64,000 nucleotides of DNA from Escherichia phage vB_EcoM_011D4, in the sequence record MT478991.1. One strand, given 5' to 3'. A model generated the notes under the pieces. The model was not told where the DNA came from and did no database searches. It saw nothing but the letters and a program-made list of their open reading frames with translations. Made by a program: the position numbers and the translations under genes. This document shows positions 40,624 through 60,064 of the stretch, one piece after another (positions within the stretch are counted from its first letter, which is position 1; each line of letters starts with the position of its first letter).

Positions 40624-40915
40624 AATATGTTCCCCCTTCAATCTCATATTGTTTCAGGTCTTCTAAAAGTTCATCCATTGCTTGTTTCAGCACATGACGC
40701 AGCGTAAAATAATAGCTTTCATCAAATTCTATTTCATCGCGAGGAATAGAGCGAAACTTACACTTAACGGTAGTGTCAGTGAGTCGCTTTTCGAGCATCA
40801 TACGAACTTCTTCATGATCTTTGGAATACCATACATCAACGGAGATCCCCTTACGGCGAGCAAACATAGGCAACGCTGCATTAAATTCCATTACTTTTTG
40901 TGCAAGTGTTTTCAT
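40598..40915 (-). CDS. Hypothetical protein (105 aa)
   Basis: ORF between gp47 and gp46. Confidence 0.4.
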   Translation of the reverse strand: MKTLAQKVMEFNAALPMFARRKGISVDVWYSKDHEEVRMMLEKRLTDTTVKCKFRSIPRDEIEFDESYYFTLRHVLKQAMDELLEDLKQYEIEGGTYYEYDYGRG

Positions 40916-41163
40916 CGTACAGACTCCATAGACCCACGAGCAATAACATTCTGGGTAATATCAGCAACCTTACGGGATACGATGGTTGCTAGTTCCAGTC
41001 TAGTGATATTGTCTCGGTCGAAAGGAATTTCATCATGTGTCCACATCCCGTAATTAGAACGGAAGGATAGCATATGTTGACCATTCCGAACAACCTCAAA
41101 AACTCGGATCTTAGTAAACTTCTCTAAACTTGCGTTAAATTCTTTCAGTGTGTCAGTAATCAT
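40912..41163 (-). CDS. Hypothetical protein (83 aa)
   Basis: First ORF downstream of the promoter at 41188. Confidence 0.4.
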   Translation of the reverse strand: MITDTLKEFNASLEKFTKIRVFEVVRNGQHMLSFRSNYGMWTHDEIPFDRDNITRLELATIVSRKVADITQNVIARGSMESVR

Positions 41164-41187
41164 AATAACCTCCCATCAATTTTAGAG

Positions 41188-41216
41188 AGTATAACGGGGA
41201 TTTCTCCCCGCGTCAA
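41188..41216 (-). promoter_or_regulatory. Sigma70-like early promoter (TTGACG-N17-TATACT) with spacer palindrome
   Basis: - strand TTGACGcggggagaaatccccgtTATACT directly after the gp47 stop; spacer holds CGGGGA-GAAA-TCCCCG. Confidence 0.55.
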
Positions 41217-42242
41217 CTAACTTTTTGCGCTATTTACTTCGGCTAAAAGTTCATCAGAGATACGCTTAACTGCCGCAAGTTCTTCCGGTTCTAGGTTTTG
41301 TTCTTCCAGATATTCATAGACCATCTGAATAGTGCTTTTAACTTCAATAACACCTGTTTCCTGTGATGCGCTACTCTCCAGCTTATGGACAACTTTTAGC
41401 TTATGCACAACGGCTTCTAACGCGCTTTCTAACTTAGTTAACCCATTATCAGCGACCGTTGCAATTAGGCGCACACTAAGCCCTTTAAAGCGTTCTACAT
41501 CGATTTTATCATCTGACGGGTAAGCGATACGCACATGATAAGTTTTGTCATTCTGGATAAACTCCTTTTTGTGTGTATCTGTATCGAATACCCAAAAACC
41601 ACGCGGATCATTTTCGTCGCCAGCCGTTAGTGTGTATGGTGTACCGATATACGTTACGTTACCGCCATCACTGATAGTATGAAAGTGACCGGAAAACACT
41701 TCACGGTATTTCTTGAGGAAGTCCGCGCTATAACCTTCGGATTTTAACCCTTTATAGAAATAGTAGCCGGACAATTCCCAATGGCCTACACAATATTCGC
41801 TGAATGAATTTTGAATAAACTCTAAAACCTCGGATTTATTGTCATCACAAAACCACGGGAACAGGTCGAATGATACCCCATCAAAGGTAACTGTTTCCGG
41901 CTTATCAATAACCTTAATGCAATCATACTGGCTTAACACTTCGCGCGGTGCGTTAGGCTGGATCTTATTGCGTTTAAACATATCATGATTCCCGACCGTG
42001 ATATAACAGGTGATTCCTGCCTCTTCCAGTAATGGGATGACCTTAGTACGGTTAAATTTCATGGTTTCATGTGTGATAGCCTTGCGACAATCAAACCAAT
42101 CCCCTGTTTGAATCCATATCTTAATACCGTTTTCTTTAGAATAATCAACAGCTTTCTTGATCGTGTCTAAAATATACTCATGCACCCACGGATCATCGCC
42201 ACCGATACCAGTATGCAGATCACCCAAAAGCAAAATTTTCAT
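41217..42242 (-). CDS. 47: Recombination endonuclease subunit gp47 (Mre11/SbcD-like)
   Basis: 341 aa; phosphoesterase motifs (LLLGDLH, GDWFD, VGNHD, GHWE, GHFH); blocks GTPYTLTAGDENDPRGFWVFDTDT match gp47 as recalled. Confidence 0.9.
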   Translation of the reverse strand: MKILLLGDLHTGIGGDDPWVHEYILDTIKKAVDYSKENGIKIWIQTGDWFDCRKAITHETMKFNRTKVIPLLEEAGITCYITVGNHDMFKRNKIQPNAPREVLSQYDCIKVIDKPETVTFDGVSFDLFPWFCDDNKSEVLEFIQNSFSEYCVGHWELSGYYFYKGLKSEGYSADFLKKYREVFSGHFHTISDGGNVTYIGTPYTLTAGDENDPRGFWVFDTDTHKKEFIQNDKTYHVRIAYPSDDKIDVERFKGLSVRLIATVADNGLTKLESALEAVVHKLKVVHKLESSASQETGVIEVKSTIQMVYEYLEEQNLEPEELAAVKRISDELLAEVNSAKS

Positions 42243-46908: not shown

Positions 46909-46920
46909 AATATATTCCCC

Positions 46921-47926: not shown

Positions 47927-47927
47927 C

Positions 47928-48437
47928 TCAAATAATTTTCACTGGAATACTATTAACAATCTTGTATTGTACTTGATTGTCAGACCCCCGCCACGGCTTC
48001 TTCGTTGGCATATCTTTAATATAACGCCCATCGATGAACATGTCAACTGATTCTACAATTTTTCTTTGCTCATCATTCAATTGGTCAAGGGTATAACCAG
48101 ACCATAGCCAAATATCTTTATTTGGCATCCATGATTTTACTTCATCGATGATCCGCTGTACACCCTTTAAATTGCGTTTATACAGTGGATCGCCACCTAA
48201 GAATGTTAGCCCCTGAATAAAATCAGGTCTAAGCAGATCCAGAATCAATCCCATTGTATCATCGGTGAATGGTTCCCCGTTCTTAGGATTGAGTAGGCTA
48301 GCATTAAAGCAACCATCACATGCGTGTGAACATCCGGTAACGTAAAGGGAGACTCTCACTCCCTCACCGTTAACCATATCACAATCTTTAATATCGGCAT
48401 AGCGTAGTTTGCCGTATGTATCAGAACTCATATTCAA
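47928..48437 (-). CDS. nrdG: Anaerobic ribonucleotide reductase activating protein NrdG (radical SAM)
   Basis: 169 aa; radical-SAM cluster CSHACDGC (Cx3Cx2C); GGDPL; adjacent to nrdD as in T4. Confidence 0.85.
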   Translation of the reverse strand: MNMSSDTYGKLRYADIKDCDMVNGEGVRVSLYVTGCSHACDGCFNASLLNPKNGEPFTDDTMGLILDLLRPDFIQGLTFLGGDPLYKRNLKGVQRIIDEVKSWMPNKDIWLWSGYTLDQLNDEQRKIVESVDMFIDGRYIKDMPTKKPWRGSDNQVQYKIVNSIPVKII

Positions 48438-48573
48438 TTACCCCGAACTCGTTTACAATCTGCGCTTTATAGTAACCACCGCGAGATGCTAATAGATAAG
48501 CTGGGCTTAGGTATTCGTATTCACGGATTTCTACTTGTGCGTTTTCAGTTTCCCAAATCAGTAAAGTCCACAT
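48421..48573 (-). CDS. Small ORF (about 50 aa)
   Basis: ATG at 48573 with AGGAGAATCAAAT leader just downstream of the promoter at 48616. Confidence 0.3.
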   Translation of the reverse strand: MWTLLIWETENAQVEIREYEYLSPAYLLASRGGYYKAQIVNEFGVIEYEF

Positions 48574-48615
48574 ATTTGATTCTCCTGTAAAGTTGTATCT
48601 CGTCTTGATGAATAT

Positions 48616-48644
48616 AGTATAGGGGATCTCGCGATCCCCGTCAA
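48616..48644 (-). promoter_or_regulatory. Sigma70-like early promoter (TTGACG-N17-TATACT) with spacer palindrome
   Basis: - strand TTGACGgggatcgcgagatccccTATACT; spacer is the palindrome GGGGATC-TCGC-GATCCCC. Confidence 0.55.
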
Positions 48645-48648
48645 GCAT

Positions 48649-49197
48649 TTATTTTAAATTTTTTCGAATGTAGTCAGACCATTCCTTCCCTGTCAGTTCG
48701 GTCCCATTCTGGAAACTGAAATATTCATACGGCATCGAGTCAAGATAAAACAGGATCATACATCGCGCCATATAATACCAATCACGATTAAAGTAAACTA
48801 CGTTATCTCCAGTACCATCAGCACCTTTATCATAACCATCGCGGGTACGGGCGACCCATTGAATGGTATCATTTTTCTCACGGATAGTAACAGGTTCCCA
48901 ATATCCAGCACATCCAGCATGACCACACGAACAAGTAAGGAAATATTGACCTTTTGCTTTGTTGTCATCCCATTCACGATGAATTGGTTTGATTTCGTGA
49001 AACAGTGCCAAACAATCATGATTATGCAACACTGGCTTACCATCAATCAATGCATGGAATGTATACAAACGACCCGTAGACAAATAGCTATCCTCACGCT
49101 CAACCAGTTCAATAGCAATCTTTTTAGCTAGTTCTTTGTGTCGTTGTGCTTTACGCTTACGGTTTAATGATTTCATATTCACCTCACACATTATCAA
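48649..49197 (-). CDS. Hypothetical Cys/His-rich protein (182 aa)
   Basis: Contains a CSCGHAGCAGYW cluster and several His/Cys. Confidence 0.45.
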   Translation of the reverse strand: MIMCEVNMKSLNRKRKAQRHKELAKKIAIELVEREDSYLSTGRLYTFHALIDGKPVLHNHDCLALFHEIKPIHREWDDNKAKGQYFLTCSCGHAGCAGYWEPVTIREKNDTIQWVARTRDGYDKGADGTGDNVVYFNRDWYYMARCMILFYLDSMPYEYFSFQNGTELTGKEWSDYIRKNLK

Positions 49198-49736: not shown

Positions 49737-49764
49737 GTTGTCCTCTCGTTGTTTTCGATGTGAG

Positions 49765-49792: not shown

Positions 49793-49794
49793 AC

Positions 49795-49830: not shown

Positions 49831-49836
49831 TGAAAA

Positions 49837-51699
49837 TTACATGTGCTTAACGCGGTTTACCATCTCGGAGTGTTTCCCGTGGTTAAATGGACGCAGATCA
49901 ACAGATCCAAGATATCCACTAACGCGGCGGATAACATTCATCTTTTCCAGATTGTCGTTGCCGCAATCAGGACAAACAAAACCAGACTCGGTCGCTCTCA
50001 TTTCCTTATTAGATCCGCATACATGACATACATCAGAAGGAGTATTAACACCGAAGTAGTGCAATTTATCCATTGCATAGTCTACTACAGTTTCAAGACC
50101 TTTCAGGTTGTTTTTCATGTCTGGGAACTCAACATAAGAGATCATGCCACCGGACGCCAGCCAGTGATAATCTTTCTCAAAGTCGATTTTCTCAAATGGT
50201 GTGACTTTCCGGTCTACGTCAAGGTGGAATGAGTTGGTGTACCAGTCTTTATCGGTAGCACCCTTAACAATACCAAATTGCTCTCTGTCCAGTCGATTAA
50301 ATCGATAGCAAAGGCTCTCGGCTGGAGTACCGTAAAGACTAAACCCAAGTCCGGTTTCATCCTTCCATTTTTCAGTATAATGACGCAGGATTTTAAGAAT
50401 ATGTTTACCGTATCGCTGCGCATCTTCCGAATCAAACGGATGAACACCAAACAGGACGCTCAATACCTCATGCAAACCAATATACCCAAGAGAGATACTA
50501 GCGCGACCATCTTTCAGCACTTCCAAAATTTCATCGTTTTGATGAATACGGAAAAATGCACCTTCTGTATACAGCACCGGAGCAACATTGGCTTTAGCCC
50601 CTTTTAAAGCGTCTACGCGACTCATGAGCGCATCAAAGCAAATAGGCATACGATTAGCTAGCTCTTGTTCGAATAGCTCAATTCTGCGCATTACAGACGC
50701 TTTACCAGCACGACGAGCGGCAATAAGGGCAATACGCGGAAGATTCAGAGTCACAACACCTAAGTTATTACGTCCGTCTAATACTTCTTCGCCTTTCTCA
50801 TTATGCCACACACCCAGGAAGCTACGACAACCCATCGGGCTAACCGGAACACTAGATCCGGTGATACTACGGTTATTCTTCGCAGAGATATAATCAGGGT
50901 AAAGACGCTTACTAGAACATTCCAATGCAAGTTGCTTAATGTCGTAGTTCGGATCTTCCGGTTTAAGGTTTAATCCTTCTTCTAAGAACATCACCAGCTT
51001 AGGAAACACCGGAGTTATACCATCTTTACCTAAACCTTTAGTTCGAACTTTCAGGATCGCTTTCTGAATCAGTTTTTCTTCCCAGCTAGTACCCATACCA
51101 AAGGTTAAAGTCACAAAAGGCGTTTGACCGTTGGTGGAGAACAAAGTGTTGATTTCATATTCCAACGCTTGATACCCGTCTAAAGTTTCTTTTTCTGTCT
51201 TCTCTTGTGCATAGAGAGTATCAGCTTTGATTCCGTAGGTTTCGGCATCAGCAAGGTGTTTATGATATGTTTTCTCAACGTATGGCGCTAAAACCTGATC
51301 GATGTTTGCAATTGTGGTCCCGCCATATTGATGACTTGCCACCTGTGCGATAATTTGAGCGGTTACAGCACAAGCAACGCCGATTGATTTCGGACTTTCG
51401 ATTTGTGCGCTACCCAATTTAAAACCATTCTCTAACATGTCTTTGAGATTAACAAGACAGCAGTTAGTAAACGGCATAGCGGGTGCATAATCCATATCAT
51501 GATAATGAATATCACCGTCTACATGCGCTTTATAGATGTGCTCAGGTAACACGGTTTTAGCAATCTGTTTAGACACAGCACCAGCAATCAGATCTCGACG
51601 TGTCGGGAATGTTCGCGCGTCTTTGTTCGCGTTCTCTTTACTTACTTCGTTTTCTTTACCCGTTGCGATCTCTGTAATGTCTTTGATTAGTTTTTCCAT
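49837..51699 (-). CDS. nrdD: Anaerobic ribonucleoside-triphosphate reductase NrdD (glycyl radical enzyme), intron-less
   Basis: 620 aa; C-terminal zinc ribbon CHVCGS...CPDCG and glycyl-radical motif RVSGYLG; single uninterrupted ORF. Confidence 0.9.
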   Translation of the reverse strand: MEKLIKDITEIATGKENEVSKENANKDARTFPTRRDLIAGAVSKQIAKTVLPEHIYKAHVDGDIHYHDMDYAPAMPFTNCCLVNLKDMLENGFKLGSAQIESPKSIGVACAVTAQIIAQVASHQYGGTTIANIDQVLAPYVEKTYHKHLADAETYGIKADTLYAQEKTEKETLDGYQALEYEINTLFSTNGQTPFVTLTFGMGTSWEEKLIQKAILKVRTKGLGKDGITPVFPKLVMFLEEGLNLKPEDPNYDIKQLALECSSKRLYPDYISAKNNRSITGSSVPVSPMGCRSFLGVWHNEKGEEVLDGRNNLGVVTLNLPRIALIAARRAGKASVMRRIELFEQELANRMPICFDALMSRVDALKGAKANVAPVLYTEGAFFRIHQNDEILEVLKDGRASISLGYIGLHEVLSVLFGVHPFDSEDAQRYGKHILKILRHYTEKWKDETGLGFSLYGTPAESLCYRFNRLDREQFGIVKGATDKDWYTNSFHLDVDRKVTPFEKIDFEKDYHWLASGGMISYVEFPDMKNNLKGLETVVDYAMDKLHYFGVNTPSDVCHVCGSNKEMRATESGFVCPDCGNDNLEKMNVIRRVSGYLGSVDLRPFNHGKHSEMVNRVKHM

Positions 51700-51711
51700 T
51701 GTATCACCTAT

Positions 51712-51735
51712 GAAAAAGCGGGATTTCTCCCGCTC
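51712..51735 (-). terminator. Hairpin plus T-run upstream of nrdD
   Basis: - strand AGCGGGA-GAAA-TCCCGCT followed by TTTTTCAT, 13 nt before the nrdD ATG. Confidence 0.5.
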
Positions 51736-51743
51736 GTTGATAG

Positions 51744-52238
51744 TTATTTTACCAATTCTGCTAATTCTTTTTCTTTAGCTTCTAGTTCAGCTTTAAGCTG
51801 TTTAATCTCTTGTCGCTTCTTATTAGCGGCTTCCTGCTTACTATTTCGGATAACCTGATCTAGATACAATTCCCAATCCTGAATATTTTTGATAATGTAG
51901 CCGTCAACATTAATTGGTCGGAGATTCAGTACAGCTTCCAGTTTAGTTGCAAAAACTTTAATTGCTGGGGTGAAGTATTCATATTCGTTATCTTCAAACC
52001 AATAACCTAGACTTGCATTCTCAATACGAAGATGAAGTTTAAGATCAAGGTCTTTATCATCGGTATATAGGTCTTTTACACACCCCATAGAATTAACCAC
52101 AACTTTAAAACGAATTTTATCTACACCACCAAAAACATCTTCAAGAATATCAGCAATTGAGCTATTAGCGCAAGATTGGTCGCTGAATGCGTCAAGGTTT
52201 TCTTTAGTTACAGTATACCAAACATCTTGTACCCACAT
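51744..52238 (-). CDS. Hypothetical protein (164 aa), C-terminal coiled coil
   Basis: ORF with a K/E-rich C-terminal coiled coil. Confidence 0.45.
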   Translation of the reverse strand: MWVQDVWYTVTKENLDAFSDQSCANSSIADILEDVFGGVDKIRFKVVVNSMGCVKDLYTDDKDLDLKLHLRIENASLGYWFEDNEYEYFTPAIKVFATKLEAVLNLRPINVDGYIIKNIQDWELYLDQVIRNSKQEAANKKRQEIKQLKAELEAKEKELAELVK

Positions 52239-52268
52239 AATATAATCCTCTCGTTGTTAAGTGGGAGT

Positions 52269-52296
52269 ATTATAGCATACTCCCTTCGCATGTCAA
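52269..52296 (-). promoter_or_regulatory. Sigma70-like early promoter (TTGACA-N16-TATAAT) inside GGGAGTA..TACTCCC palindrome
   Basis: - strand TTGACAtgcgaagggagtatgcTATAATactccc. Confidence 0.6.
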
Positions 52297-53471
52297 GCAC
52301 TAACTTTTTTCTTTACTGCTTTCACCTTCTGGCGAATTGCTCGAATCTCTTCGATCTCTTTTTCAGTCTCTTTAACAATTTCTTTGCGATTCTGAATATC
52401 TGTATCTAGATTATCATCAAGTTTAGGCAGCATGTCAATCAAGAACTTTTTAAAGTCTTTCAGGTTTCGGATAACAGCACCTTCACCCATTACCGCCACG
52501 CCTACACCATCCGGCAGGTCGCCAAACAGTTTAACCAGTTCAGACAGATGATCATGATCTTCTAGTGCTTCTTCCGGTTCAGATGGCAGTCCAACAAAGT
52601 AATAACGTTCATCATTGCTGATCAGGTGATACCAGCAAAGCCCAAAAGATTTAGGAGTATATTCTACACCACCAACTTCAACTGCGTCAACACTTCCGAA
52701 AGAATCTACTTTAGTTACCTTAAATCCATGTTCCAGCGTTTTAATAATTTCAATAACATGACTAGATACGGTTTCAGTATTAAACCAATGAGGCAAATTA
52801 TGTGGATTTGGCTTGTATCGTTCGCCTACTTTAAATCTCTGACCACGCTCTTGCATACGGACATATTCAACTCGCGTGATTTCCGCGAAGTATTCAAATT
52901 CGCTACCGTCAAACAAGCAATTCCATTGATCACAAAAACGATCCGCCTTGACGGTTTCACCTTTCGCGGTGATCATGGTAGCCGATCCATGAAATTCTTC
53001 TTCAACCAAAAAGCCATATTCGACAAAATCAACAAGTTTCATGGCTTCTTTATGCTCTGGGTCATGCTCTCCCCAGAATCGCTTAAATTCTTGCAAACCT
53101 TCTGGGGTAAACGAATAACATTTACCTTTTTCAAAGTAAGTCGGCATTGCATCCTCTTTCTTGTTCATCGCTTCGTATGCCTCTTTTGAGATACGTTTAA
53201 AGTATTTGCGCTCATTGTGCATAATCATAGTAGACCAATAATAAACGATATCCTCAGCGGAATAAACTACATCTCCAGCTTCAATAGTAATAACATGACC
53301 GTGGTCATCTTTTTCTAATACTTTAAAGCCCTTTTCTACGATTTCAGCAACCCGAATATGACCACGGCGCGAAGCATCGGTCAGAATAATTGAATAGCGA
53401 GAAAAGTCTAGAAACTCATCTTTACCACCTTCACGGAATGCATAGTAATGACCTTCAAAGAATTTAGCCAT
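52293..53471 (-). CDS. Hypothetical protein; module family (3 tandem modules)
   Basis: Three internal repeats each with G(H/K)(Y/C)Y.F...GFKV(L/T)...G.V...(I/V)E.G...ER(K/Y)YF; acidic/coiled-coil tail. Confidence 0.5.
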   Translation of the reverse strand: MAKFFEGHYYAFREGGKDEFLDFSRYSIILTDASRRGHIRVAEIVEKGFKVLEKDDHGHVITIEAGDVVYSAEDIVYYWSTMIMHNERKYFKRISKEAYEAMNKKEDAMPTYFEKGKCYSFTPEGLQEFKRFWGEHDPEHKEAMKLVDFVEYGFLVEEEFHGSATMITAKGETVKADRFCDQWNCLFDGSEFEYFAEITRVEYVRMQERGQRFKVGERYKPNPHNLPHWFNTETVSSHVIEIIKTLEHGFKVTKVDSFGSVDAVEVGGVEYTPKSFGLCWYHLISNDERYYFVGLPSEPEEALEDHDHLSELVKLFGDLPDGVGVAVMGEGAVIRNLKDFKKFLIDMLPKLDDNLDTDIQNRKEIVKETEKEIEEIRAIRQKVKAVKKKVSA

Positions 53472-53502
53472 AATATAATCCTCTCGTTGTTTAGATGGGA
53501 GT

Positions 53503-53531
53503 ATCTTACTACTCCCGTTTCATCATGTCAA
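53503..53531 (-). promoter_or_regulatory. Sigma70-like early promoter (TTGACA-N17-TAAGAT) inside GGGAGTA..TACTCCC palindrome
   Basis: - strand TTGACAtgatgaaacgggagtagTAAGATactccc; core identical to promoters at 10292 and 10570. Confidence 0.6.
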
Positions 53532-54112
53532 GCGTTAAATGACTTTTGGATCTCTTTCAGTTCAGCTACTTTATCTGCGCTATATTTTGCTTGATGTTCC
53601 ATGCGCTTAATCTCACCTTTGATATAGGTTTCTAGCTTAGGTTTATTCTCAATCAAAAAATCTTTCAGGTCATCGGCATTTTTAAAGTATAGCTGATTAT
53701 CAACGCTAAAATCTTCCAGCGTCAATGATACCAAAGAAGACTTCGCAAACAAGTTAATCAGATCTTCCAGCGATTCTTCTTTCTTAACTGGCTTCATTTC
53801 TTCAAACTGCTTTTTAGTGATACGCTTAAAGTATTTGCGCTCGCTGGCATCAATCATGATTGATGCGCCCTCATAATCATGAGTTTCTACCAAATACACT
53901 TTACCCATAACATTAACAGTCAGAACTTTAAAGCCCTTGTGAAGCACACCATACAGGAACTTGTTATGTTGTGGATAGCGTTTAACAAATTCCTCTGCGG
54001 ACTCAGCATTACGGAAAGTGTAATAACGACCTCGTTCAAAAACAGCATCATTTGAAGACTTAGCCGGATACAATTTATACGTTTTCTGTACCATAATATA
54101 ATCCTCTATCAT
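53528..54112 (-). CDS. Hypothetical protein; module family (1 module)
   Basis: RGRYYTFRNAESAEEF...GFKVLTVNVMGKVYLVE...ASERKYFKRI. Confidence 0.5.
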   Translation of the reverse strand: MIEDYIMVQKTYKLYPAKSSNDAVFERGRYYTFRNAESAEEFVKRYPQHNKFLYGVLHKGFKVLTVNVMGKVYLVETHDYEGASIMIDASERKYFKRITKKQFEEMKPVKKEESLEDLINLFAKSSLVSLTLEDFSVDNQLYFKNADDLKDFLIENKPKLETYIKGEIKRMEHQAKYSADKVAELKEIQKSFNA

Positions 54113-54381
54113 TTCACTAATTGAACAGCACGGAACAGAATGCGCTCACACGGAAGCAGCATAAATTCCCAACGCGGATCAAAGTCTTTAGCGGTATACG
54201 TTTTCCCATCAACCGAGATTTCACTTACATAACCAACAGGTGACACTTTAAGAACAGTAAACCCATTCTTGATGACTTCGTAGGTATCTTTCACCCCTTC
54301 GTATTCATCATCTAAGAAGTCTTTATGTGCTTGCTCAGATTTAAAAACATAGGCCACACCGGATTTAAACATCTTACGCAT
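54109..54381 (-). CDS. Hypothetical protein; module family (1 module)
   Basis: ATG at 54381 with AAGGAGAATCAACA leader; SGVAYVFKSEQAHKDF...GFTVLKV...VSEISVDGKTY. Confidence 0.45.
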   Translation of the reverse strand: MRKMFKSGVAYVFKSEQAHKDFLDDEYEGVKDTYEVIKNGFTVLKVSPVGYVSEISVDGKTYTAKDFDPRWEFMLLPCERILFRAVQLVK

Positions 54382-54412
54382 TGTTGATTCTCCTTCTTGA
54401 TTAGATGGGAGT

Positions 54413-54441
54413 ATTTTACTACTCCCATTTCTTATTGTCAA
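54413..54441 (-). promoter_or_regulatory. Sigma70-like early promoter (TTGACA-N17-TAAAAT) inside GGGAGTA..TACTCCC palindrome
   Basis: - strand TTGACAataagaaatgggagtagTAAAATactccc directly after the gp49 stop. Confidence 0.6.
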
Positions 54442-54444
54442 CTA

Positions 54445-54933
54445 CTATCTTAATCTTTGTATAAATTGTTTCTTATACTTCTTCGTGATCTCTTCTCTTG
54501 TATCAGCGTCACAATAATCGAAGCCTTCTGCGTCCATAATAGCAACCATCTCCGCGCGTGTCAAGCGTGAAAATCGTTTTACTTTATCAACAGCATATTG
54601 AGGATGTAAATGATTGTTGGTGTAGTCTCCTTTGATGTAATTAACATAGTTTGTCGCCCAAACAACGAAATCAGCACCTAAAGCACCAACACCAAACCGT
54701 TTAAAGTCTCCGGTCAACGATCCTTCTAGGCGGTTGCAACACGAATGAAGCAATCCCCTTACGCGGCCTTGCCCTTTACCATCTAGATCGTGGTCGTGGT
54801 CAAGATGGTTTTTGCTCATATCCTCAAAAAGTGGCAATTGACAAAGGGGGCAAATGCCCCCCTGTTTTTCGAATAGTTCTTGTTTGTACTCTTTAGCACT
54901 CTTAGCAGTCAGTAACATAAATTCACCCTCCAA
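54445..54933 (-). CDS. 49: Endonuclease VII (gp49, Holliday junction resolvase)
   Basis: 162 aa; N-terminus MLLTAKSAKEYKQELFEKQGGICPLCQ...HLDHDHDL...GRVRGLL matches T4 endo VII as recalled. Confidence 0.85.
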   Translation of the reverse strand: MEGEFMLLTAKSAKEYKQELFEKQGGICPLCQLPLFEDMSKNHLDHDHDLDGKGQGRVRGLLHSCCNRLEGSLTGDFKRFGVGALGADFVVWATNYVNYIKGDYTNNHLHPQYAVDKVKRFSRLTRAEMVAIMDAEGFDYCDADTREEITKKYKKQFIQRLR

Positions 54934-54942
54934 AGAAGGTAT

Positions 54943-55224
54943 TTAACCATGAATCTTGTTTTTGACTACAAAGGATCGGAACTCATCAAAGCCACCAATA
55001 TAATCACCATCATAGAAAATCTGCGGCATGGTGGCAATAACTTCTACCCCTGCGCGATCCTGAATATCGGCAATGATAGAATCAATCTTTACGGGGCGAC
55101 CGTTTTCGTCAACACCATCATTAACCGGAATGTAGATGTAAGGGATCTTACGCGATTCACAAAGGCGCTTTGCATTCTGGCAATACTTACAGTTGTAACC
55201 TTCAAAACCAAAAATTTCTACCAT
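54943..55224 (-). CDS. nrdC: Thioredoxin/glutaredoxin-like protein (NrdC-like)
   Basis: CKYC active-site motif near the N-terminus, cis-Pro TMPQIF and GGF; lies next to gp49 as nrdC does in T4. Start at ATG 55224. Confidence 0.55.
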   Translation of the reverse strand: MVEIFGFEGYNCKYCQNAKRLCESRKIPYIYIPVNDGVDENGRPVKIDSIIADIQDRAGVEVIATMPQIFYDGDYIGGFDEFRSFVVKNKIHG

Positions 55225-55232
55225 ATTATACC

Positions 55233-56045
55233 TCAATCTACGTTAGTTACATAAACTTCTTGCGTATCAGAAGACTTGCCACCTGAACGGTCTAGGCAAT
55301 AGGTCTTATTCAACAGGACGCAGTTTAAATCATTCCGCTTGATAAAGTCAAGAAGATGATCGTTTACCTTTCCCTTATGATGCGTGACATTACTGATACC
55401 AAACTGAAAACCACGCGCCATAATAGATTCCACCCACCGATAGAATTTAATCTCTTCCTCGTCACTCCAGAACTTATTATATTCCGCAGAAGTGATAAGG
55501 TACGGCGGGTCCAAATAAACGAAATCACCTGGCAAGATCTCGATCTCGTCATAACGACCAGACGTAAAACTGATTCGACCGTCTTTGTTTTCTTCCTTAA
55601 AATTCAGGACACGCTCTACCGCGTTTTCGTTAAAAGTCCGGCGACCAAAATTAGCATTAAATTCGCCCTTTCGGTTATGGCGGTTAATGTTGCTAAAACT
55701 GTGCTGAATCAACACAAACAGCGATAGCGGATCTGGATTCTCGTTATACTTCTTACGGAATGCCATGTAAGCGTCTTTATCATCACGAGACAAACCATTT
55801 TCGGAAATAATCCGATTGATTGTAGAAACCGGATCAGGACACGCATCAATGGCCTTGTAAGCGTCAATTAAACGATGGTCATAGTCATTAGCCAGCACAT
55901 CACCTTCGACGTACAGAGACACGCTCAAACCGCCACAAAAGGCATCAACAAAGCGGTTATAGTGCTTAGGGAAATACTTACTAACACCTGGCAATAGCTT
56001 TTCCTTATTGCCAGTATAGGGAATTAAACCTAATGCTTTCTTCAT
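55233..56045 (-). CDS. dam: DNA adenine methyltransferase (Dam)
   Basis: 270 aa; AdoMet motif FVDAFCGGLSV and catalytic DPPY (YLDPPYL). Confidence 0.85.
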   Translation of the reverse strand: MKKALGLIPYTGNKEKLLPGVSKYFPKHYNRFVDAFCGGLSVSLYVEGDVLANDYDHRLIDAYKAIDACPDPVSTINRIISENGLSRDDKDAYMAFRKKYNENPDPLSLFVLIQHSFSNINRHNRKGEFNANFGRRTFNENAVERVLNFKEENKDGRISFTSGRYDEIEILPGDFVYLDPPYLITSAEYNKFWSDEEEIKFYRWVESIMARGFQFGISNVTHHKGKVNDHLLDFIKRNDLNCVLLNKTYCLDRSGGKSSDTQEVYVTNVD

Positions 56046-56476
56046 TATCCCTTCCTCAAATAAGTTCGCTCAATCTCTACCAGTTCGAAAAAATCTTGCC
56101 AGTCGCAAGGAAAATTGCAGTTTCCGAAATGATCCTCTTTGTAAAGTTCTTTACCGGATGGCAGCTTAATATCTGTTACGCTGTAGTATCCGCAACAATC
56201 GCAATCACCCTCTGTATATTCTGTTTTGGTAGGAATATCCATCATTGCCAGATACAAAGGCACATCGTCTTGCTCAAAGTTCATGTAACCTTCATGGTCG
56301 AATGAAACAAAGTTATCATCACCACCGAAAGGGATATAATGGTCATAATCTGTTACAGGTTGACCGTGTAATTCCCATTCTACAATTTTAACATTACCGC
56401 TAAACTTGATACCCATAATTTCAACAATAAAATGAGTATCGTCAATGTAAATCTTACCAGGAGTTGGATAAACCAT
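56045..56476 (-). CDS. Hypothetical protein (143 aa)
   Basis: ORF; contains a Cys cluster (GDCDCCGYY...CNFPC). Confidence 0.45.
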   Translation of the reverse strand: MVYPTPGKIYIDDTHFIVEIMGIKFSGNVKIVEWELHGQPVTDYDHYIPFGGDDNFVSFDHEGYMNFEQDDVPLYLAMMDIPTKTEYTEGDCDCCGYYSVTDIKLPSGKELYKEDHFGNCNFPCDWQDFFELVEIERTYLRKG

Positions 56477-56486
56477 TATATAATCC

Positions 56487-56783
56487 TCATATCTCAGAGA
56501 ATAGAATCTCTGTTAGCTTCACTGACTGCTCTCTGAATGTTAGCGTATACTCGAAAGGAAAGTCAACACCCAATTTCAAAAGAGAATAGCCTACCGCCTC
56601 TTTATGCTTATCGGTTAGGGCGATCCTAACCAATTCCCGTTGAATCTCTTTAGGCGGTGAATGGATAGTAACACGGGTATCATGTAATGTCCAGTCACCA
56701 TTACGAATCAAGATTAACGGTTTATCGTCATTAAAGATCACCGACCCCTTTCCGGTCGGTGAGTGTTTTATACTAATCATCAA
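56487..56783 (-). CDS. Hypothetical protein (98 aa)
   Basis: Compact - strand ORF. Confidence 0.4.
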   Translation of the reverse strand: MMISIKHSPTGKGSVIFNDDKPLILIRNGDWTLHDTRVTIHSPPKEIQRELVRIALTDKHKEAVGYSLLKLGVDFPFEYTLTFREQSVKLTEILFSEI

Positions 56784-56994
56784 ATTCTAAGAAATATTCT
56801 GGAACGATATAACCGTTAAAGTCATTGCACTTATAAAAATGTGGTGCATTTAATGCTGGATGAGCGTTTGTAAAGAGTTTACCCTCTAGAAACAGAATGT
56901 AATTAATAGGTCTTATACCGACAGAATCAGGGTCTAATCCTTTTTCTCTCAGTTCAGCCAGCGTTAAAACTCGTCCAGATCGTAACTTAGCCAT
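56773..56994 (-). CDS. Hypothetical protein (73 aa)
   Basis: Compact - strand ORF. Confidence 0.4.
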   Translation of the reverse strand: MAKLRSGRVLTLAELREKGLDPDSVGIRPINYILFLEGKLFTNAHPALNAPHFYKCNDFNGYIVPEYFLEFDD

Positions 56995-57280
56995 GATTTA
57001 CCCCCAATTCATCAAGATTGTGTCGCAGCATTTCAGAGTATTTTTCTACTTCCTTAATCTTAGTGTGGATCTCCACGATCTCATCTTCACTATCAGAAAG
57101 TTTAATGGCAATAGCGGTACTGCTTTTACCCGCTTTCATAGTCTCTTTCAGTTCAACCAACAGGTCCGCGTGTTTCAGTAGCAGTTCTTCACGTCGAACA
57201 TAAGCGACGGTCAAAGCCTCATCAGCGATTTCTAAAGCATTTTCAGCGACACCAACAACCATTTTACGAGTAGACAGCAT
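56987..57280 (-). CDS. Hypothetical protein (97 aa)
   Basis: Compact - strand ORF; coiled-coil-like. Confidence 0.4.
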   Translation of the reverse strand: MLSTRKMVVGVAENALEIADEALTVAYVRREELLLKHADLLVELKETMKAGKSSTAIAIKLSDSEDEIVEIHTKIKEVEKYSEMLRHNLDELGVNHG

Positions 57281-57294
57281 AAATTCACCTCACA

Positions 57295-57603
57295 TTATTT
57301 CACGTTAACGCCGCCATCAATCCAGCCGACGCTATTTGGTTTAACAGTTTTACCATAGGATGCATACTTAATCAAGCATGGTTTAACATCATTATCAAAT
57401 CTTCCTAAGCGTACTCCCAAATCAGGAATATCCATGTAAGCGGCTTTATATCCCCATGTACAATATTCAGCATCAATCTCAACCGGACGGCCTTTAAAAG
57501 CATACACTACACCGTAACGGTCAACGATAACATAGCGATAGCCAGCCGGAAGATACACAGTTTCGCCGTAAACTTTAACTGGAGTAGCAGAAGAGATAAA
57601 CAT
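57295..57603 (-). CDS. Hypothetical protein (102 aa)
   Basis: First ORF after the promoter at 57638; GTGAGGAAT RBS. Confidence 0.4.
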   Translation of the reverse strand: MFISSATPVKVYGETVYLPAGYRYVIVDRYGVVYAFKGRPVEIDAEYCTWGYKAAYMDIPDLGVRLGRFDNDVKPCLIKYASYGKTVKPNSVGWIDGGVNVK

Positions 57604-57637
57604 AATATATTCCTCACATCGTTCATTTGATGCGGCT

Positions 57638-57666
57638 ATTATAGGATAACCGCATTTTCATGTCAA
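57638..57666 (-). promoter_or_regulatory. Sigma70-like early promoter (TTGACA-N17-TATAAT) with -10 inside an inverted repeat
   Basis: - strand TTGACAtgaaaatgcggttatccTATAATagccgc; GCGGTTA..TAGCCGC flanks the -10. Confidence 0.6.
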
Positions 57667-57672
57667 CAGTTT

Positions 57673-58035
57673 TTAAAAATCTTCTTCCGGTTTATATCGA
57701 CCGTCGTCTTCTTGTTTTGGGCTGAATCCGGTATGTTTGCGCGGCTTCGCTTCCGGTTTACCCGCAATCATCAAACCAAAACATTTCAGCCCCTTATAAC
57801 ACATAACAATATAAACTACTGTCCACGTTATAGGCCAGATGATTGCGGCAATACAAAATGCTCCTGTATCGACCTCTTTCGTGTCCTTATCGAATCTGGC
57901 ATACAAGCAGAATATAAGATACGAGATCATTGCACCCGTAGGCCAGATATAAAGCACATTAACAATATCTTGTGTTGTCACATTGTCCTCCTTACATGTC
58001 TTGCAGTGCGTAGAAGCATTTTTCTTCATAGTCAT
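57673..58035 (-). CDS. Predicted membrane protein (about 120 aa)
   Basis: Two hydrophobic helices (AMISYLIFCLYA, AAIIWPITWTVVYIVMCY); track start is TTG, ATG at 58035; overlaps the upstream gene's 3' end. Confidence 0.4.
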   Translation of the reverse strand: MTMKKNASTHCKTCKEDNVTTQDIVNVLYIWPTGAMISYLIFCLYARFDKDTKEVDTGAFCIAAIIWPITWTVVYIVMCYKGLKCFGLMIAGKPEAKPRKHTGFSPKQEDDGRYKPEEDF

Positions 58036-58270
58036 AGAAAATGTCAAAGTATGCTTTTTCTACATACTCGCCATTGATCCAAGCGGCAGTAACAATCAGG
58101 GTAGTCCAGTTAGATCCGCTCTCAACGGTAAAGGTTTTAATACCCAGCTTCACAGCAAGGTCACGCGCAAACTGGTCGCAACCACGGCAGGAAGTGATAT
58201 TGGAAGTTTTGATTTTGATGCCACCGCGAGTTTTAGAAATTTCTACTTTAGCGAAAGACAGGTTGCTCAT
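57992..58270 (-). CDS. Hypothetical protein (92 aa)
   Basis: ATG at 58270 with CTTAAGGAGAATCAAA leader; the track start lies upstream of the predicted transcription start. Confidence 0.4.
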   Translation of the reverse strand: MSNLSFAKVEISKTRGGIKIKTSNITSCRGCDQFARDLAVKLGIKTFTVESGSNWTTLIVTAAWINGEYVEKAYFDIFYDYEEKCFYALQDM

Positions 58271-58313
58271 TTTGATTCTCCTTAAGAAAAGTGTGTTTCG
58301 TTTTGATGTGTGT

Positions 58314-58342
58314 AGTATAGGGGATACGCGATCCCCTGTCAA
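58314..58342 (-). promoter_or_regulatory. Sigma70-like early promoter (TTGACA-N17-TATACT) with spacer palindrome
   Basis: - strand TTGACAggggatcgcgtatccccTATACT; spacer palindrome GGGGAT-CGCGT-ATCCCC as at 48616. Confidence 0.55.
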
Positions 58343-58357
58343 CAACTTTTTATGATT

Positions 58358-58678
58358 TTAGTGAATTAACTCTACACCAAAATGAGGCACAGAGAACGCC
58401 TTACGAAACACATATTCATCATGTTTAGGGATCGCCCCTAACCTCTCTATTTCGCTCGCCATAACGATAAACTGTTTATCTGGTGCATATGCCTTGTGTG
58501 CTTCAACAACGCACGGAAAACGCGTTTTAGAGAGTTCTGGATAGTTTTCTGAATCCAGAAGGACGATGAATACCCTATTACATTGATTGTAGAATCCTGT
58601 TTTTGATTTCATCAAGTTTTTTTCTATGTACATTTCGTGCAATCTTCCTTTCATGATTTCGTTGGTTCTTGTCTTCAC
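58358..58678 (-). CDS. Hypothetical protein; 5' end uncertain (overlaps upstream ORF by about 100 nt)
   Basis: Track start is GTG; internal ATGs at 58654, 58633 and 58612 lack strong RBS; possible frameshift partner of 58578..58916. Confidence 0.3.
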   Translation of the reverse strand: MKTRTNEIMKGRLHEMYIEKNLMKSKTGFYNQCNRVFIVLLDSENYPELSKTRFPCVVEAHKAYAPDKQFIVMASEIERLGAIPKHDEYVFRKAFSVPHFGVELIH

Positions 58679-58916
58679 AGTTTACCCACTCAACAAGATC
58701 TTTACCTAACTCGAAAGCCCATTCTCGGTCTTGCTTTACGTTTTGTAGGTATGGGCTTTCCGACACTCGACGAAGTGATCTTGTCGTAACAAGAATGATC
58801 CCAGGAATGGTCGGATGTTCTTTTCCATATACAATAGGACGCGAGTCACTATCAATACCTTGTAAGAAGGTGTATCCTGAATCACTTAGAATCATATACT
58901 TTTTCATTTCACACAT
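58578..58916 (-). CDS. Hypothetical protein (112 aa)
   Basis: ATG at 58916 overlaps the upstream stop; basic C-terminal tail overlaps the next ORF in another frame. Confidence 0.4.
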   Translation of the reverse strand: MCEMKKYMILSDSGYTFLQGIDSDSRPIVYGKEHPTIPGIILVTTRSLRRVSESPYLQNVKQDREWAFELGKDLVEWVNCEDKNQRNHERKIARNVHRKKLDEIKNRILQSM

Positions 58917-59173
58917 CACAGATTCCTCAACCAGTTATTAAAGCGAGCAAACCATGATGCTTTTCGTGCTTCTTTTACTTTATGTGCACGAAAACCACTG
59001 AAACACCATTCATAATCATCACCGAAACATGATTCAACAGGAACACCCGCATTTCGTAGTTCTCTGGTCTTTATCATGAATCCTTGACATAAGGGTCGAC
59101 CTTCAACAATGATAGGAAGTTTAACTTTTTCCATGAAATTATACCCAGCACGGTCAATAATTTCAATCTTCAT
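58916..59173 (-). CDS. Hypothetical protein; small paralog family B
   Basis: MKIEIIDRAGYNFMEKVKLPIIVEGR...AGVPVE; paralog of 59192..59389 and 61743..61964. Confidence 0.45.
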   Translation of the reverse strand: MKIEIIDRAGYNFMEKVKLPIIVEGRPLCQGFMIKTRELRNAGVPVESCFGDDYEWCFSGFRAHKVKEARKASWFARFNNWLRNL

Positions 59174-59191
59174 AATATAATCCTCAATTAG

Positions 59192-59389
59192 TTATACCGC
59201 CCAGGCTTCATTTGCACGAAAACACCATTCATACTCAGGAAAATAACCTTTAATTGGCACGCCAGCTTTTTGTAGTTCCTGCGTTTCTACAAGATAATCA
59301 AGCCCATAACGACGACCTTCCACGATGATAGGAAGTTTAACGCCATTCATGAAAGAAAATCCACCATCATCAATAATTTCAATTTTCAT
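59192..59389 (-). CDS. Hypothetical protein; small paralog family B
   Basis: MKIEIIDDGGFSFMNGVKLPIIVEGR...AGVPIK; tandem to 58916..59173. Confidence 0.45.
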   Translation of the reverse strand: MKIEIIDDGGFSFMNGVKLPIIVEGRRYGLDYLVETQELQKAGVPIKGYFPEYEWCFRANEAWAV

Positions 59390-59633
59390 TTACATTGTCT
59401 CCATAGATCTTTCCAGCAATATCAATTTCACCAGCGCGAACATCTAGGATAAGATGCGGTAGGTGTATGCAGTTTTCCCACCCTACGCGCTTCATTTCTT
59501 CTACGGTAACGTAAGCCCACCCGTTCGCTGTAATAAAGTCTACTTCAACCTTGAGAGGAAAGCAAGACTTTTCTATGTCTTCGAATCCGACAATATGTTT
59601 TGTTGTTGAATATGGAATATATCCGGTGATCAT
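59379..59633 (-). CDS. Hypothetical protein (84 aa)
   Basis: Compact - strand ORF. Confidence 0.4.
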   Translation of the reverse strand: MITGYIPYSTTKHIVGFEDIEKSCFPLKVEVDFITANGWAYVTVEEMKRVGWENCIHLPHLILDVRAGEIDIAGKIYGDNVNEN

Positions 59634-60064
59634 TTTGTGATCTCCTTATACTCAACACACCATAAGCGGGTAGCCCATGATAAACGCTCATAACGCTGGC
59701 AGAAATCGGACCATAGATATTGTGTACCGTCTTGCATAGTTGAAATATGCGTTTTCTCTCCTACTTTCACGAAAGAAGTATTCGATTTTGTGATCTCGAC
59801 AGGAGTATATCCGAAAGCTGGTTCCAAGTCAACATCTGAACTAAATGCCAATTTAACAGAATTTGTTTTTCTGACCGCTGTCCGGTTTCCTTCTGGGTAT
59901 AGCACAGCAGGTTTAGCGCCTAAGCGGATAAACTCAGTATTTTTAATGAACAGAATATCATGATAACCGTCATATTCCGACACTTCCATAGTAACAGGAA
60001 AATCGATATGTGTTAAACCTGGTAGATCTCGCATGTCATGAAATGTAGCCATCAACTTTTTCAT
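59630..60064 (-). CDS. Hypothetical protein (144 aa)
   Basis: GAGGAA RBS; C-terminal half (PAFGYTPVEITKSNTSFVKVGEKTHISTM...YLWSDFC) is duplicated in the next gene. Confidence 0.45.
   Translation of the reverse strand: MKKLMATFHDMRDLPGLTHIDFPVTMEVSEYDGYHDILFIKNTEFIRLGAKPAVLYPEGNRTAVRKTNSVKLAFSSDVDLEPAFGYTPVEITKSNTSFVKVGEKTHISTMQDGTQYLWSDFCQRYERLSWATRLWCVEYKEITK

What the first reader, a model, noticed from the sequence alone, without database searches (positions are those of the whole stretch)
58314..58342. Second promoter class: palindrome in the spacer (GGGGATCGCG..ATCCCC) with a TATACT -10
Promoters at 41188, 48616 and 58314 all read TTGAC(A/G)-[GGGGA...TCCCC]-TATACT with a 17-nt spacer almost entirely occupied by a GC-rich palindrome. 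This differs from the GGGAGTA class and suggests a separately regulated promoter set, or a binding site for a different factor.
Basis: seen in the sequence. Interest (0 to 1): 0.5.

Follow-up and report, generated by a model that had tools for sequence, protein, structure and literature searches.

The report
Known phage promoter-hairpin cassettes (PeSLs)

Summary
On the minus strand, 58314-58342, 48616-48644 and 41188-41216 read TTGAC(A/G), a 17-nt spacer filled by a G4...C4 hairpin, then TATACT. Four TTGACR-N15-19-TATACT matches were found against 0.12 expected, and five G4/C4 palindromes against 0.08 expected.

The window is a Krischvirus (RB49-like), 99.9% identical to phage E26 over 57000-60000. 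The sites lie in the gene 47/ORF038, ORF054/ORF053 and ORF071/ORF070 intergenic gaps. Each starts 0-15 nt after the upstream stop codon and ends 24-43 nt before a Shine-Dalgarno sequence and ATG.

They match the PeSL cassettes of Arbiol et al. 2010, in the subclass with the stem-loop between -35 and -10. The PeSLs that paper tested with lacZ (206/205 as promoter, 211/210 as terminator) have this same TTGACA-GGGGATC...ATCCCC core.

In sibling copies the -10 can also be TATAAT.

A separately regulated promoter class is therefore not supported. The likeliest role is early promoter plus read-through attenuator plus recombination linker. Site B is a mosaic junction in JSE and Makalu_003. Already known; low interest.

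The parts
58271..58360 (-). PeSL cassette C (ORF071/ORF070 junction): from the upstream stop codon TAA (58358-58360), through the AT-rich region, promoter, hairpin and 5'UTR, to the base before the ATG
   Evidence: Promoter annotated at the orthologous site of GEC-3S. Equivalent to RB49 Pe:43045.
58337..58342 (-). -35 hexamer TTGACA (site C)
58319..58337 (-). Spacer hairpin A-GGGGAT-CGCGT-ATCCCC-T: 7 pairs, with the outer A-U pair formed by the last base of the -35 and the first base of the -10
   Evidence: The arms are invariant and the loop is hypervariable in 9 relatives.
58314..58319 (-). -10 hexamer TATACT (site C)
58278..58283 (-). Shine-Dalgarno AAGGAG of the downstream ORF
57992..58270 (-). 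Downstream ORF (92 aa; phi1 ORF070 homologue; phrog_15990, unknown function) driven by PeSL C
58358..58612 (-). Upstream ORF (84 aa; ORF071 homologue; phrog_17411, unknown function). Read-through transcripts from it would carry the hairpin.
48574..48651 (-). PeSL cassette B (ORF054/ORF053 junction): stop TAA at 48649-48651, -35 TTGACG at 48639-48644, hairpin GGGGATC-GCGA-GATCCCC at 48622-48639, -10 TATACT at 48616-48621, SD AGGAG at 48582-48586
   Evidence: Promoter annotated in GEC-3S. Equivalent to RB49 Pe:33349. Mosaic junction in JSE and Makalu_003.
48421..48573 (-). Downstream ORF (50 aa; ORF053 homologue; phrog_4653, unknown function)
48649..49176 (-). Upstream ORF (175 aa; ORF054 homologue; phrog_8242, unknown function). 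Replaced by an allele about 55% identical in JSE and Makalu_003, with identity returning to 100% at the PeSL.
41164..41219 (-). PeSL cassette A (gene 47/ORF038 junction): gene 47 stop TAG at 41217-41219 abutting the -35 TTGACG at 41211-41216, hairpin (G)CGGGGA-GAAA-TCCCCG(T) at 41194-41211, -10 TATACT at 41188-41193, SD GGGAGG at 41169-41174
   Evidence: Promoter annotated in GEC-3S.
40912..41163 (-). Downstream ORF (83 aa; ORF038 homologue; phrog_15867, unknown function)
41217..42242 (-). Gene 47 (recombination endonuclease subunit), the upstream gene of PeSL A

Best explanation
[quoted passage not shown] Three functions are proposed.

(1) Early promoter. Host sigma-70 RNA polymerase starts about 7 nt after TATACT, immediately after infection, and expresses the small downstream ORF of unknown function. 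This is inferred from the sequence and shown by lacZ fusion for a sibling cassette with the same core.

(2) Terminator or attenuator of read-through. The hairpin lies upstream of its own transcription start, so it is transcribed only in RNA arriving from upstream genes. There the 6-7 bp G/C stem, with GNRA-type loops at sites A and B, stops or attenuates read-through and insulates each cassette. This was shown by lacZ for the 211/210 stem-loop, which is the same hairpin type. It is inferred for these three sites.

(3) Recombination linker. The roughly 60-90 bp cassette (AT-rich region, GTTG-TTGACA, hairpin, -10, CACACATC...AGGAGAATCAAA-ATG) is repeated around the genome and serves as a patch of homology. 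Recombination between copies inserts, deletes or swaps the flanked ORFs. Mosaic and indel junctions seen here support this, and the published mini-circles show it.

The shared TATACT and GGGGAT stem reflect common descent and gene conversion among cassette copies, not a distinct regulatory code.
For: Identity of the genome. The window is 99.9% identical to Escherichia phage E26 over 57000-60000. All 58 matching records are RB49-like phages (Escherichia, Enterobacteria and Shigella phages and Krischvirus entries), and every record whose taxonomy was read is Krischvirus.

Published definition. PeSLs consist of a consensus sigma-70 promoter, an AT-rich upstream region, a polyG/polyC stem-loop and an SD+ATG. 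There are five subclasses by stem-loop position. The commonest are between -35 and -10, or overlapping the -10.

Anatomy. All of these parts are present at the three sites.

Position varies across the family. A survey of window promoters that have a downstream SD+ATG finds the hairpin in several places.
- In the spacer: 3 promoters.
- Around the -10: 10292, 18864, 52269, 53503, 54413, 57638.
- Around the -35: 34373, 45458.
- Upstream with a T-run: 49766, 60833 (63249 seen).
- Downstream: 25323, 36398.

Shared flanks. All classes have the same flanking sequence outside the spacer.

The tested PeSLs are this subclass (activities).
- phi1 206/205: TTGACAGGGGATCACCGATCCCCTATACT.
- RB49 206/205: the same with a GGT loop and TATAAT.
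- RB49 211/210: TTGACAGGGGATCACGTATCCCCTATACT, one loop base different from site C here.
- Activities: about 13,000 Miller units as promoter, and a lacZ reduction comparable to rrnB T1 as terminator.

Conservation. The hexamers and stem arms are invariant in the relatives compared (9 at sites A and C, 7 at site B), apart from one outer-pair substitution at phi1 site B. Among 18 distinct spacer-hairpin variants, different arm sequences keep pairing: GGGGATC/GATCCCC, CGGGGA/TCCCCG, GGGGAG/CTCCCC, and GGGGGTC/GATCCCC with one G.U pair.

Recombination.
- At site B, JSE and Makalu_003 carry an upstream ORF054 allele about 55% identical, and identity jumps to 100% exactly at the AT-rich/-35 edge.
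- ECD7-like contigs carry extra ORFs bounded by a spacer-class PeSL at the window's 10292 PeSL.
- Two PeSLs flanking an ORF in one contig correspond to a single hybrid PeSL in another.
- The paper mapped one mini-circle crossover inside the loop.

Gene association. All 12 strict-pattern matches in viral contigs sit about 30-47 nt upstream of an ATG, in the same orientation.
Against: Terminator function at these exact sites is not shown, and they fail the classical intrinsic-terminator rule. No T-run follows the stem (the tails read UAUACU...), so the terminator scan does not call them. TransTerm called none at these junctions in RB49.

No transcript 5' or 3' end data for these sites were available to me.

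Site A was not among the RB49 early promoters predicted in 2006.

No indel or mosaic junction was seen at sites A and C in the 9 relatives compared. The recombination role is therefore demonstrated here only for site B and for sibling copies elsewhere.
Confidence: 0.85

Rival explanations
1. Operator model. The G4...C4 palindrome in the spacer is the binding site of a phage or host DNA-binding protein that represses or times this subset of promoters, making it a separately regulated class.
For: The stem arms are almost invariant across relatives while the loops vary. That is also what dyad half-sites would look like. A site between -35 and -10 is a classic repressor position (established knowledge). 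Arbiol et al. speculated that a protein may recognise the GGGG...CCCC motif, although for recombination rather than regulation.
Against: The same kind of hairpin sits at five different positions relative to the hexamers in otherwise homologous cassettes. The arm sequences differ between copies while pairing is kept, including one G.U pair that would be a C.A mismatch on the other strand. That fits a folded single strand better than a duplex operator. A cassette of this subclass was so active in uninfected E. coli that most clones picked up -35 or -10 mutations. No candidate factor is known.
Confidence: 0.07
2. DNA-structure model. The palindrome extrudes as a cruciform or hairpin in supercoiled or replicating DNA. 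It then tunes promoter activity, as in engineered cruciform-in-spacer promoters, or attracts a structure-specific nuclease that starts recombination.
For: The loops at orthologous sites include exact reverse-complement pairs: GCGA/TCGC at site B, and GGT/ACC and GCC/GGC at site C. That is the footprint of template switching or arm exchange in a DNA hairpin. The paper reports that the stem-loops block sequencing polymerase, and that one crossover mapped within a loop. The single-stranded DNA folds are stable on both strands.
Against: Arms of 6-7 bp are short for stable cruciform extrusion in duplex DNA (general knowledge, not tested here). The loop variants also occur in other cassette copies of the same genomes, so gene conversion between copies can explain much of the swapping. 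There is no evidence here of an effect on promoter activity.
Confidence: 0.06
3. Chance resemblance: ordinary intergenic hairpins that merely look like promoters.
For: None beyond the general point that consensus matches are not proof of function (one search lists many weak promoter-like sites).
Against: Shuffle expectations are 0.12 and 0.08 against 4 and 5 observed. The sites are conserved across relatives. They are consistently placed before SD+ATG. Experimental activity was shown for sibling cassettes.
Confidence: 0.01

Closest known systems
PeSL (promoter-early stem-loop) cassettes of coliphages RB49 and phi1 (Arbiol, Comeau, Kutateladze, Adamia, Krisch 2010, Genome Biol Evol 2:140, PMC2839356; extended to PST/T4 and nt-1/KVP40 by Comeau et al. 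2014, PMC4122927)
   Same: The phage genus, the architecture and the subclass (stem-loop between -35 and -10) are all the same. The core is almost identical to the tested PeSL206/205 and PeSL211/210, with the same hexamers and arms and differences only in the loop. The sites are orthologous to the phi1/RB49 junctions 47/038, 054/053 and 071/070.
   Different: Nothing essential differs. The window's site C loop (CGCGT) is a variant also seen in E26. I could not confirm that these three particular junctions appear in the paper's figures, because figures and supplements are not held.
Intrinsic (Rho-independent) terminators
   Same: A GC-rich 6-7 bp stem with a short loop (GNRA-type at sites A and B), located just after an upstream stop codon.
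   Different: No U-tract follows the stem, so neither my scan nor TransTerm calls them. Termination or attenuation rests on the published lacZ test of one sibling stem-loop.
Lambdoid 'morons' and Botstein-Campbell linker sequences
   Same: Small accessory ORFs that bring their own promoter and terminator, with conserved linkers as exchange points.
   Different: In PeSLs the regulatory cassette is itself the repeated homology that mediates exchange, and the ORFs are co-oriented with their neighbours (discussion).
Engineered promoters with a palindrome between -35 and -10, regulated by cruciform extrusion (Horwitz and Loeb 1988; recalled from memory, not checked here)
   Same: A palindrome occupies the promoter spacer.
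   Different: Those palindromes were designed to extrude under supercoiling. Here the arms are short and no supercoil dependence is known.

Membership tests
PeSL (Arbiol et al. 2010) | Near-consensus sigma-70 -35 and -10 hexamers about 17 nt apart | tested here: met
   TTGACA/TTGACG, 17 nt, TATACT at all three sites, 10-11 of 12 matches.
PeSL (Arbiol et al. 2010) | Stable stem-loop, typically polyG...polyC, within or next to the promoter (five positional subclasses, including between -35 and -10) | tested here: met
   Stems of 6-7 bp in the spacer. RNA energies are -11 to -15 kcal/mol in context, with z-scores of -2.2 to -3.3. All 18 distinct sibling variants keep at least 6 pairs.
PeSL (Arbiol et al. 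2010) | [quoted passage not shown] | tested here: met
   The stop codons lie 0, 4 and 15 nt upstream of the -35, within A-rich runs such as AAAAAGTT(A)G.
PeSL (Arbiol et al. 2010) | Shine-Dalgarno sequence and start codon of a downstream ORF at the 3' end of the cassette | tested here: met
   SD plus ATG lie 24, 42 and 43 nt after the -10. The downstream ORFs are 83, 50 and 92 aa.
PeSL (Arbiol et al. 2010) | Located in a T4-type phage, mostly next to ORFs of unknown function in hyperplastic regions | tested here: met
   Krischvirus genome. The flanking small ORFs match only PHROG families of unknown function. Site A is next to core gene 47.
PeSL (Arbiol et al. 2010) | Sequence similarity between dispersed copies over a roughly 100-bp interval | tested here: met
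   Alignment of 11 window cassettes shows shared GTTG-TTGACA, a -10, CACACATC..ACGA.. and AGGAGAATCAAA-ATG. Sites B and C are the most alike. Site A has a shorter, more divergent 5'UTR.
PeSL (Arbiol et al. 2010) | Association with insertions, deletions or replacements between related phages | tested here: met
   Site B is a mosaic boundary in JSE and Makalu_003. Sibling spacer-class PeSLs bound indels. Nothing was seen at sites A and C in 9 relatives.
PeSL (Arbiol et al. 2010) | Promoter activity in vivo | not testable with these tools
   Published: wild-type PeSL206/205 gave about 13,000 Miller units. Its sequence is of this subclass.
PeSL (Arbiol et al. 2010) | Terminator or attenuator activity of the stem-loop | not testable with these tools
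   Published: the PeSL211/210 stem-loop reduced lacZ expression comparably to rrnB T1. That stem-loop is GGGGATCACGTATCCCC in RB49, or the GGT-loop variant in phi1.
PeSL (Arbiol et al. 2010) | Formation of mini-circles by recombination between neighbouring PeSLs | not testable with these tools
   Published inverse-PCR data only.
Intrinsic terminator | GC-rich hairpin followed at once by a U-rich tract | tested here: not met
   The hairpin is present but the tails are UAUACU.... The scan does not call them, and no TransTerm call exists at these RB49 junctions.
Repressor operator in a promoter spacer | Dyad-symmetric site at a fixed position relative to the hexamers, with a conserved half-site sequence | tested here: not met
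   The hairpin position varies across homologous cassettes. The arm sequences vary while pairing is kept.
Repressor operator in a promoter spacer | A cognate DNA-binding factor | not tested
   No candidate was identified. The published speculation concerns a recombination protein only.

The most novel reading that the evidence does not exclude
The G4...C4 spacer hairpins may be DNA-level hot spots, not only RNA terminators. Their loops are hypervariable, and they are repeatedly exact reverse complements of one another at orthologous sites, in genomes that are otherwise 94-100% identical around them. A published crossover also mapped inside a loop. If a structure-specific phage enzyme (for example endonuclease VII or the gp46/47 complex) or replication template switching acts on the extruded hairpins, then PeSL shuffling would be a targeted, quasi-site-specific system rather than simple homology-driven exchange.
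Probability: 0.12. Interest if true: 0.5.

Novelty: already known. Interest (0 to 1): 0.12.

Why it matters
PeSLs are a proposed mechanism for how T4-type phages swap small accessory genes while keeping each one correctly expressed and insulated. Recognising them helps with annotation. For example, the 75-codon ORF that some records call across PeSL B is probably an artefact. It also helps in predicting early transcription units and recombination breakpoints in therapeutic RB49-like phages. For this window the finding adds no new biology beyond the 2010 and 2014 descriptions.

Tried and rejected
- **Dam methylation.** Stems B and C contain GATC and the phage encodes Dam. However, GATC is neither enriched nor depleted in the window: 365 observed against 351 expected, ratio 1.04. 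Site A has no GATC. I dropped this as a lead.
- **Rfam.** No family reaches its gathering score in 40500-60000.
- **Classical terminator prediction.** The three hairpins are not called, because there is no T-run. TransTerm predictions for RB49 do not include them either.
- **Transcriptome data.** One full-text search for Krischvirus with transcription-start-site, RNA-seq or terminator terms returned nothing relevant.
- **Supplementary figures of Arbiol 2010.** These hold the lacZ data and the PeSL list but are not held. I therefore reconstructed the tested PeSL sequences from the phi1 and RB49 records.
- **TATACT as a class-defining -10.** Rejected. Sibling spacer-hairpin cassettes use TATAAT or TACAAT.

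Full report

Yes. Read on the minus strand, the three sites are as follows.
- 58314-58342: TTGACA-GGGGATCGCGTATCCCC-TATACT.
- 48616-48644: TTGACG-GGGATCGCGAGATCCCC-TATACT.
- 41188-41216: TTGACG-CGGGGAGAAATCCCCGT-TATACT.

Each spacer is 17 nt. TTGACR-N15-19-TATACT occurs 4 times against 0.12 expected from shuffles. GGGGA-N3-9-TCCCC occurs 5 times against 0.08 expected.

The palindromes fold into 6-7 bp stems. As RNA in 56-nt contexts the energies are -11.1, -14.7 and -15.4 kcal/mol, with z-scores of -2.2 to -3.3. As single-stranded DNA they fold on either strand. At site C the outer pair uses the last base of the -35 and the first base of the -10.

**2. Where are we?**

The window is an RB49-like T4-type coliphage of the genus Krischvirus. 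It is 99.9% identical to Escherichia phage E26 over 57000-60000, and 94-97% identical to RB49, phi1, JSE, GEC-3S and about 50 others.

All 37 strong sigma-70-like matches in the window are on the minus strand, as are all the annotated genes in 40.5-59.5 kb.

By alignment to phi1 and RB49, the sites occupy these intergenic gaps.
- Site A: gene 47 / ORF038.
- Site B: ORF054 / ORF053.
- Site C: ORF071 / ORF070.

The upstream stop codon lies 0, 4 and 15 nt before the -35 at sites A, B and C. A Shine-Dalgarno sequence plus ATG follows 24, 42 and 43 nt after the -10. The downstream ORFs are 83, 50 and 92 aa. All the flanking small ORFs match only PHROG families of unknown function.

The GEC-3S GenBank record annotates promoters at all three orthologous positions. 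Nolan et al. 2006 predicted RB49 early promoters Pe:33349 (site B) and Pe:43045 (site C, score 38.3). [quoted passage not shown]

**3. What is it?**

Arbiol et al. 2010 (PMC2839356) described exactly this element in phi1 and RB49 as the PeSL, or promoter-early stem-loop. Their definition has these parts.
- A consensus sigma-70 promoter.
- An AT-rich upstream region that holds the upstream stop codon.
- A stable polyG/polyC stem-loop.
- The SD and ATG of the downstream ORFan.

They count about 50 per genome, in five subclasses by stem-loop position. The commonest positions are between -35 and -10, or overlapping the -10.

My own survey of window promoters that are followed by SD+ATG reproduces those subclasses.
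- Hairpin in the spacer: the three sites.
- Around the -10: 10292, 18864, 52269, 53503, 54413 and 57638.
- Around the -35: 34373 and 45458.
- Upstream with a T-run: 49766 and 60833. The 63249 promoter, seen, has the same arrangement.
- Downstream of the -10: 25323 and 36398.

An alignment of 11 cassettes shows that all classes share the flanks: GTTG-TTGACA upstream, and (A/G)CACACATC..ACGA...AGGAGAATCAAA-ATG downstream. They differ essentially in the spacer.

TATACT does not define the class. Sibling spacer-hairpin cassettes carry TATAAT or TACAAT.

**4. Link to experiments**

I extracted the intergenic sequences of the PeSLs that the paper tested.
- phi1 206/205: TTGACAGGGGATCACCGATCCCCTATACT.
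- RB49 206/205: TTGACAGGGGATCGGTGATCCCCTATAAT.
- RB49 211/210: TTGACAGGGGATCACGTATCCCCTATACT, followed by the same ACACACATCAAAACGAAACACAC leader as site C.
- The phi1 equivalent of 211/210: GGGGATCGGTGATCCCC.

All of these are spacer-hairpin cassettes. Their hairpins are identical to those found at site C in RB49, JK32 or phi1. The RB49 211/210 hairpin differs by one loop base from the window's site C.

The paper reports three relevant results.
- A wild-type PeSL206/205 clone gave about 13,000 Miller units.
- Most promoter clones acquired -35 or -10 mutations, which the authors took to mean the native expression level was probably deleterious.
- The 211/210 stem-loop, placed between a promoter and lacZ, reduced expression comparably to rrnB T1.

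Promoter and terminator activity have therefore been shown for this subclass, though not for these three loci. I infer which phage's sequence was cloned. Either choice is of this subclass.

**5. Conservation and recombination**

In the relatives compared (9 at sites A and C, 7 at site B) the hexamers and arms are invariant, apart from one outer-pair substitution at phi1 site B. Variation is concentrated in the loops.

Across all fetched loci there are 18 distinct spacer-hairpin variants whose arms differ but stay paired: GGGGATC/GATCCCC, CGGGGA/TCCCCG, GGGGAG/CTCCCC, and one with a G.U pair. This fits selection on a folded single strand.

Several junctions point to recombination at PeSLs.
- At site B, JSE and Makalu_003 carry an upstream ORF054 allele only about 55% identical. 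Identity switches to 100% exactly at the AT-rich/-35 edge of the cassette.
- ECD7-like contigs have extra ORFs inserted at the window's 10292 PeSL, bounded by a spacer-class PeSL.
- Two PeSLs flanking an ORF in one contig correspond to one hybrid PeSL in another.

These reproduce the published "modular shuffling".

**6. Mechanism, with its weak point**

The steps divide as follows.
- Shown, by sequence and by sibling reporters: strong sigma-70 early promoters.
- Inferred: the hairpin lies upstream of its own start site. It is therefore made only in read-through RNA, where it terminates or attenuates transcription.

The weak point is that no U-tract follows the stems. My scan and TransTerm do not call them terminators. 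For these loci the terminator role rests on one published construct.

**7.

"Promoters" and "a recognisable second arrangement" are both right. [quoted passage not shown] is not supported, for three reasons.
- The flanks are shared with the other classes.
- The hairpin position varies across the family.
- Activity in uninfected cells is strong and constitutive.

A DNA-binding protein is not excluded. The original authors speculated about one in the context of recombination.

**8. Side observations**

- Loops at orthologous sites include exact reverse-complement pairs: GCGA/TCGC at site B, and GGT/ACC and GCC/GGC at site C. This suggests hairpin-mediated inversion or exchange at the DNA level. 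The paper contains no occurrence of "inversion" in its main text, although it mapped one crossover inside a loop.
- GATC sites in the stems are not statistically remarkable.
- The strict motif also occurs once in a T4-like cyanophage contig, near gp45.

**9. Verdict**

This is an already known element, correctly seen and over-interpreted. Interest is low.

Noticed in passing
window 48622-48639 and 58319-58337; L006 (E26), L005 (RB49), L010 (JK32), L004 (Makalu_003), L015: The hairpin loops are hypervariable between genomes that are otherwise nearly identical around them. They include exact reverse-complement pairs at the same orthologous site: site B GCGA (window, RB49 and others) against TCGC (E26); site C GGT (RB49) against ACC (JK32), and GCC (Makalu_003) against GGC (IMG/VR contig). 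This looks like loop inversion by template switching or arm exchange, or gene conversion between PeSL copies. The word 'inversion' does not occur in the main text of the 2010 paper.
   Followed up: partly
window 48649-49176 against L007 (JSE) and L004 (Makalu_003): This is a mosaic junction. The ORF054 allele of JSE and Makalu_003 is only about 55% identical to the window's, and identity becomes 100% exactly at the AT-rich/-35 edge of PeSL B.
   Followed up: yes
window about 10292-10338; L017 12233-12442; L019 3713-4204: ECD7-like contigs carry about 210 nt or about 490 nt of extra sequence, inserted at the window's PeSL at 10292-10320. That PeSL has its hairpin around the -10. On the upstream side the insert is bounded by a spacer-class PeSL (TTGACAGGGGATCGGCGATCCCCTATACT).
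   Followed up: partly
window 48421-48648 (-): A 75-codon ORF starts at the ATG that overlaps the ORF054 stop (TAAATG) and reads straight through PeSL B into ORF053. The E26 record annotates this long form. It has no Shine-Dalgarno sequence, and the E26 loop flip changes two of its codons non-conservatively. The 50-aa ORF behind AGGAG is the likelier gene.
   Followed up: partly
L011 509-537 and L012 4377-4405 (IMG/VR contigs); L013 2989-3017: The same architecture, TTGACA-GGGGA...TCCCC-TATACT about 30-47 nt upstream of an ATG, occurs in a T4-like cyanophage contig near the gp45 sliding-clamp gene, and in an unidentified marine viral contig. These are two independent hits, against roughly 0.2 expected by my rough estimate.
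   Followed up: partly
window 1-64000: All 37 best sigma-70-like promoter matches (at most 1 mismatch in total) lie on the minus strand. This is consistent with a long leftward early and replication-gene region.
   Followed up: no
window 3247-3269: GCGGGGAGACAATCCCCGC is flanked by T-runs on both strands (TTTTAGCGGGGAGACAATCCCCGCTTTTCT). It looks like a classical bidirectional intrinsic terminator, not a PeSL.
   Followed up: no
window 36367-36426 (-): The promoter TTGACT-17-TATAAT is followed 6 nt later by GGGGAGTATAAAACTCCCC plus TTTTT. This places a terminator-like hairpin just downstream of the -10 (the PeSL subclass 'downstream of -10').
   Followed up: no
window 40500-59500 against E26 (L006): The window is 99.9% identical to E26 over 57000-60000, but only 97.1% identical, in three pieces, over 40500-59500. 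E26 has, for example, a shorter ORF049 homologue. Even the closest relative is therefore mosaic across this region.
   Followed up: no
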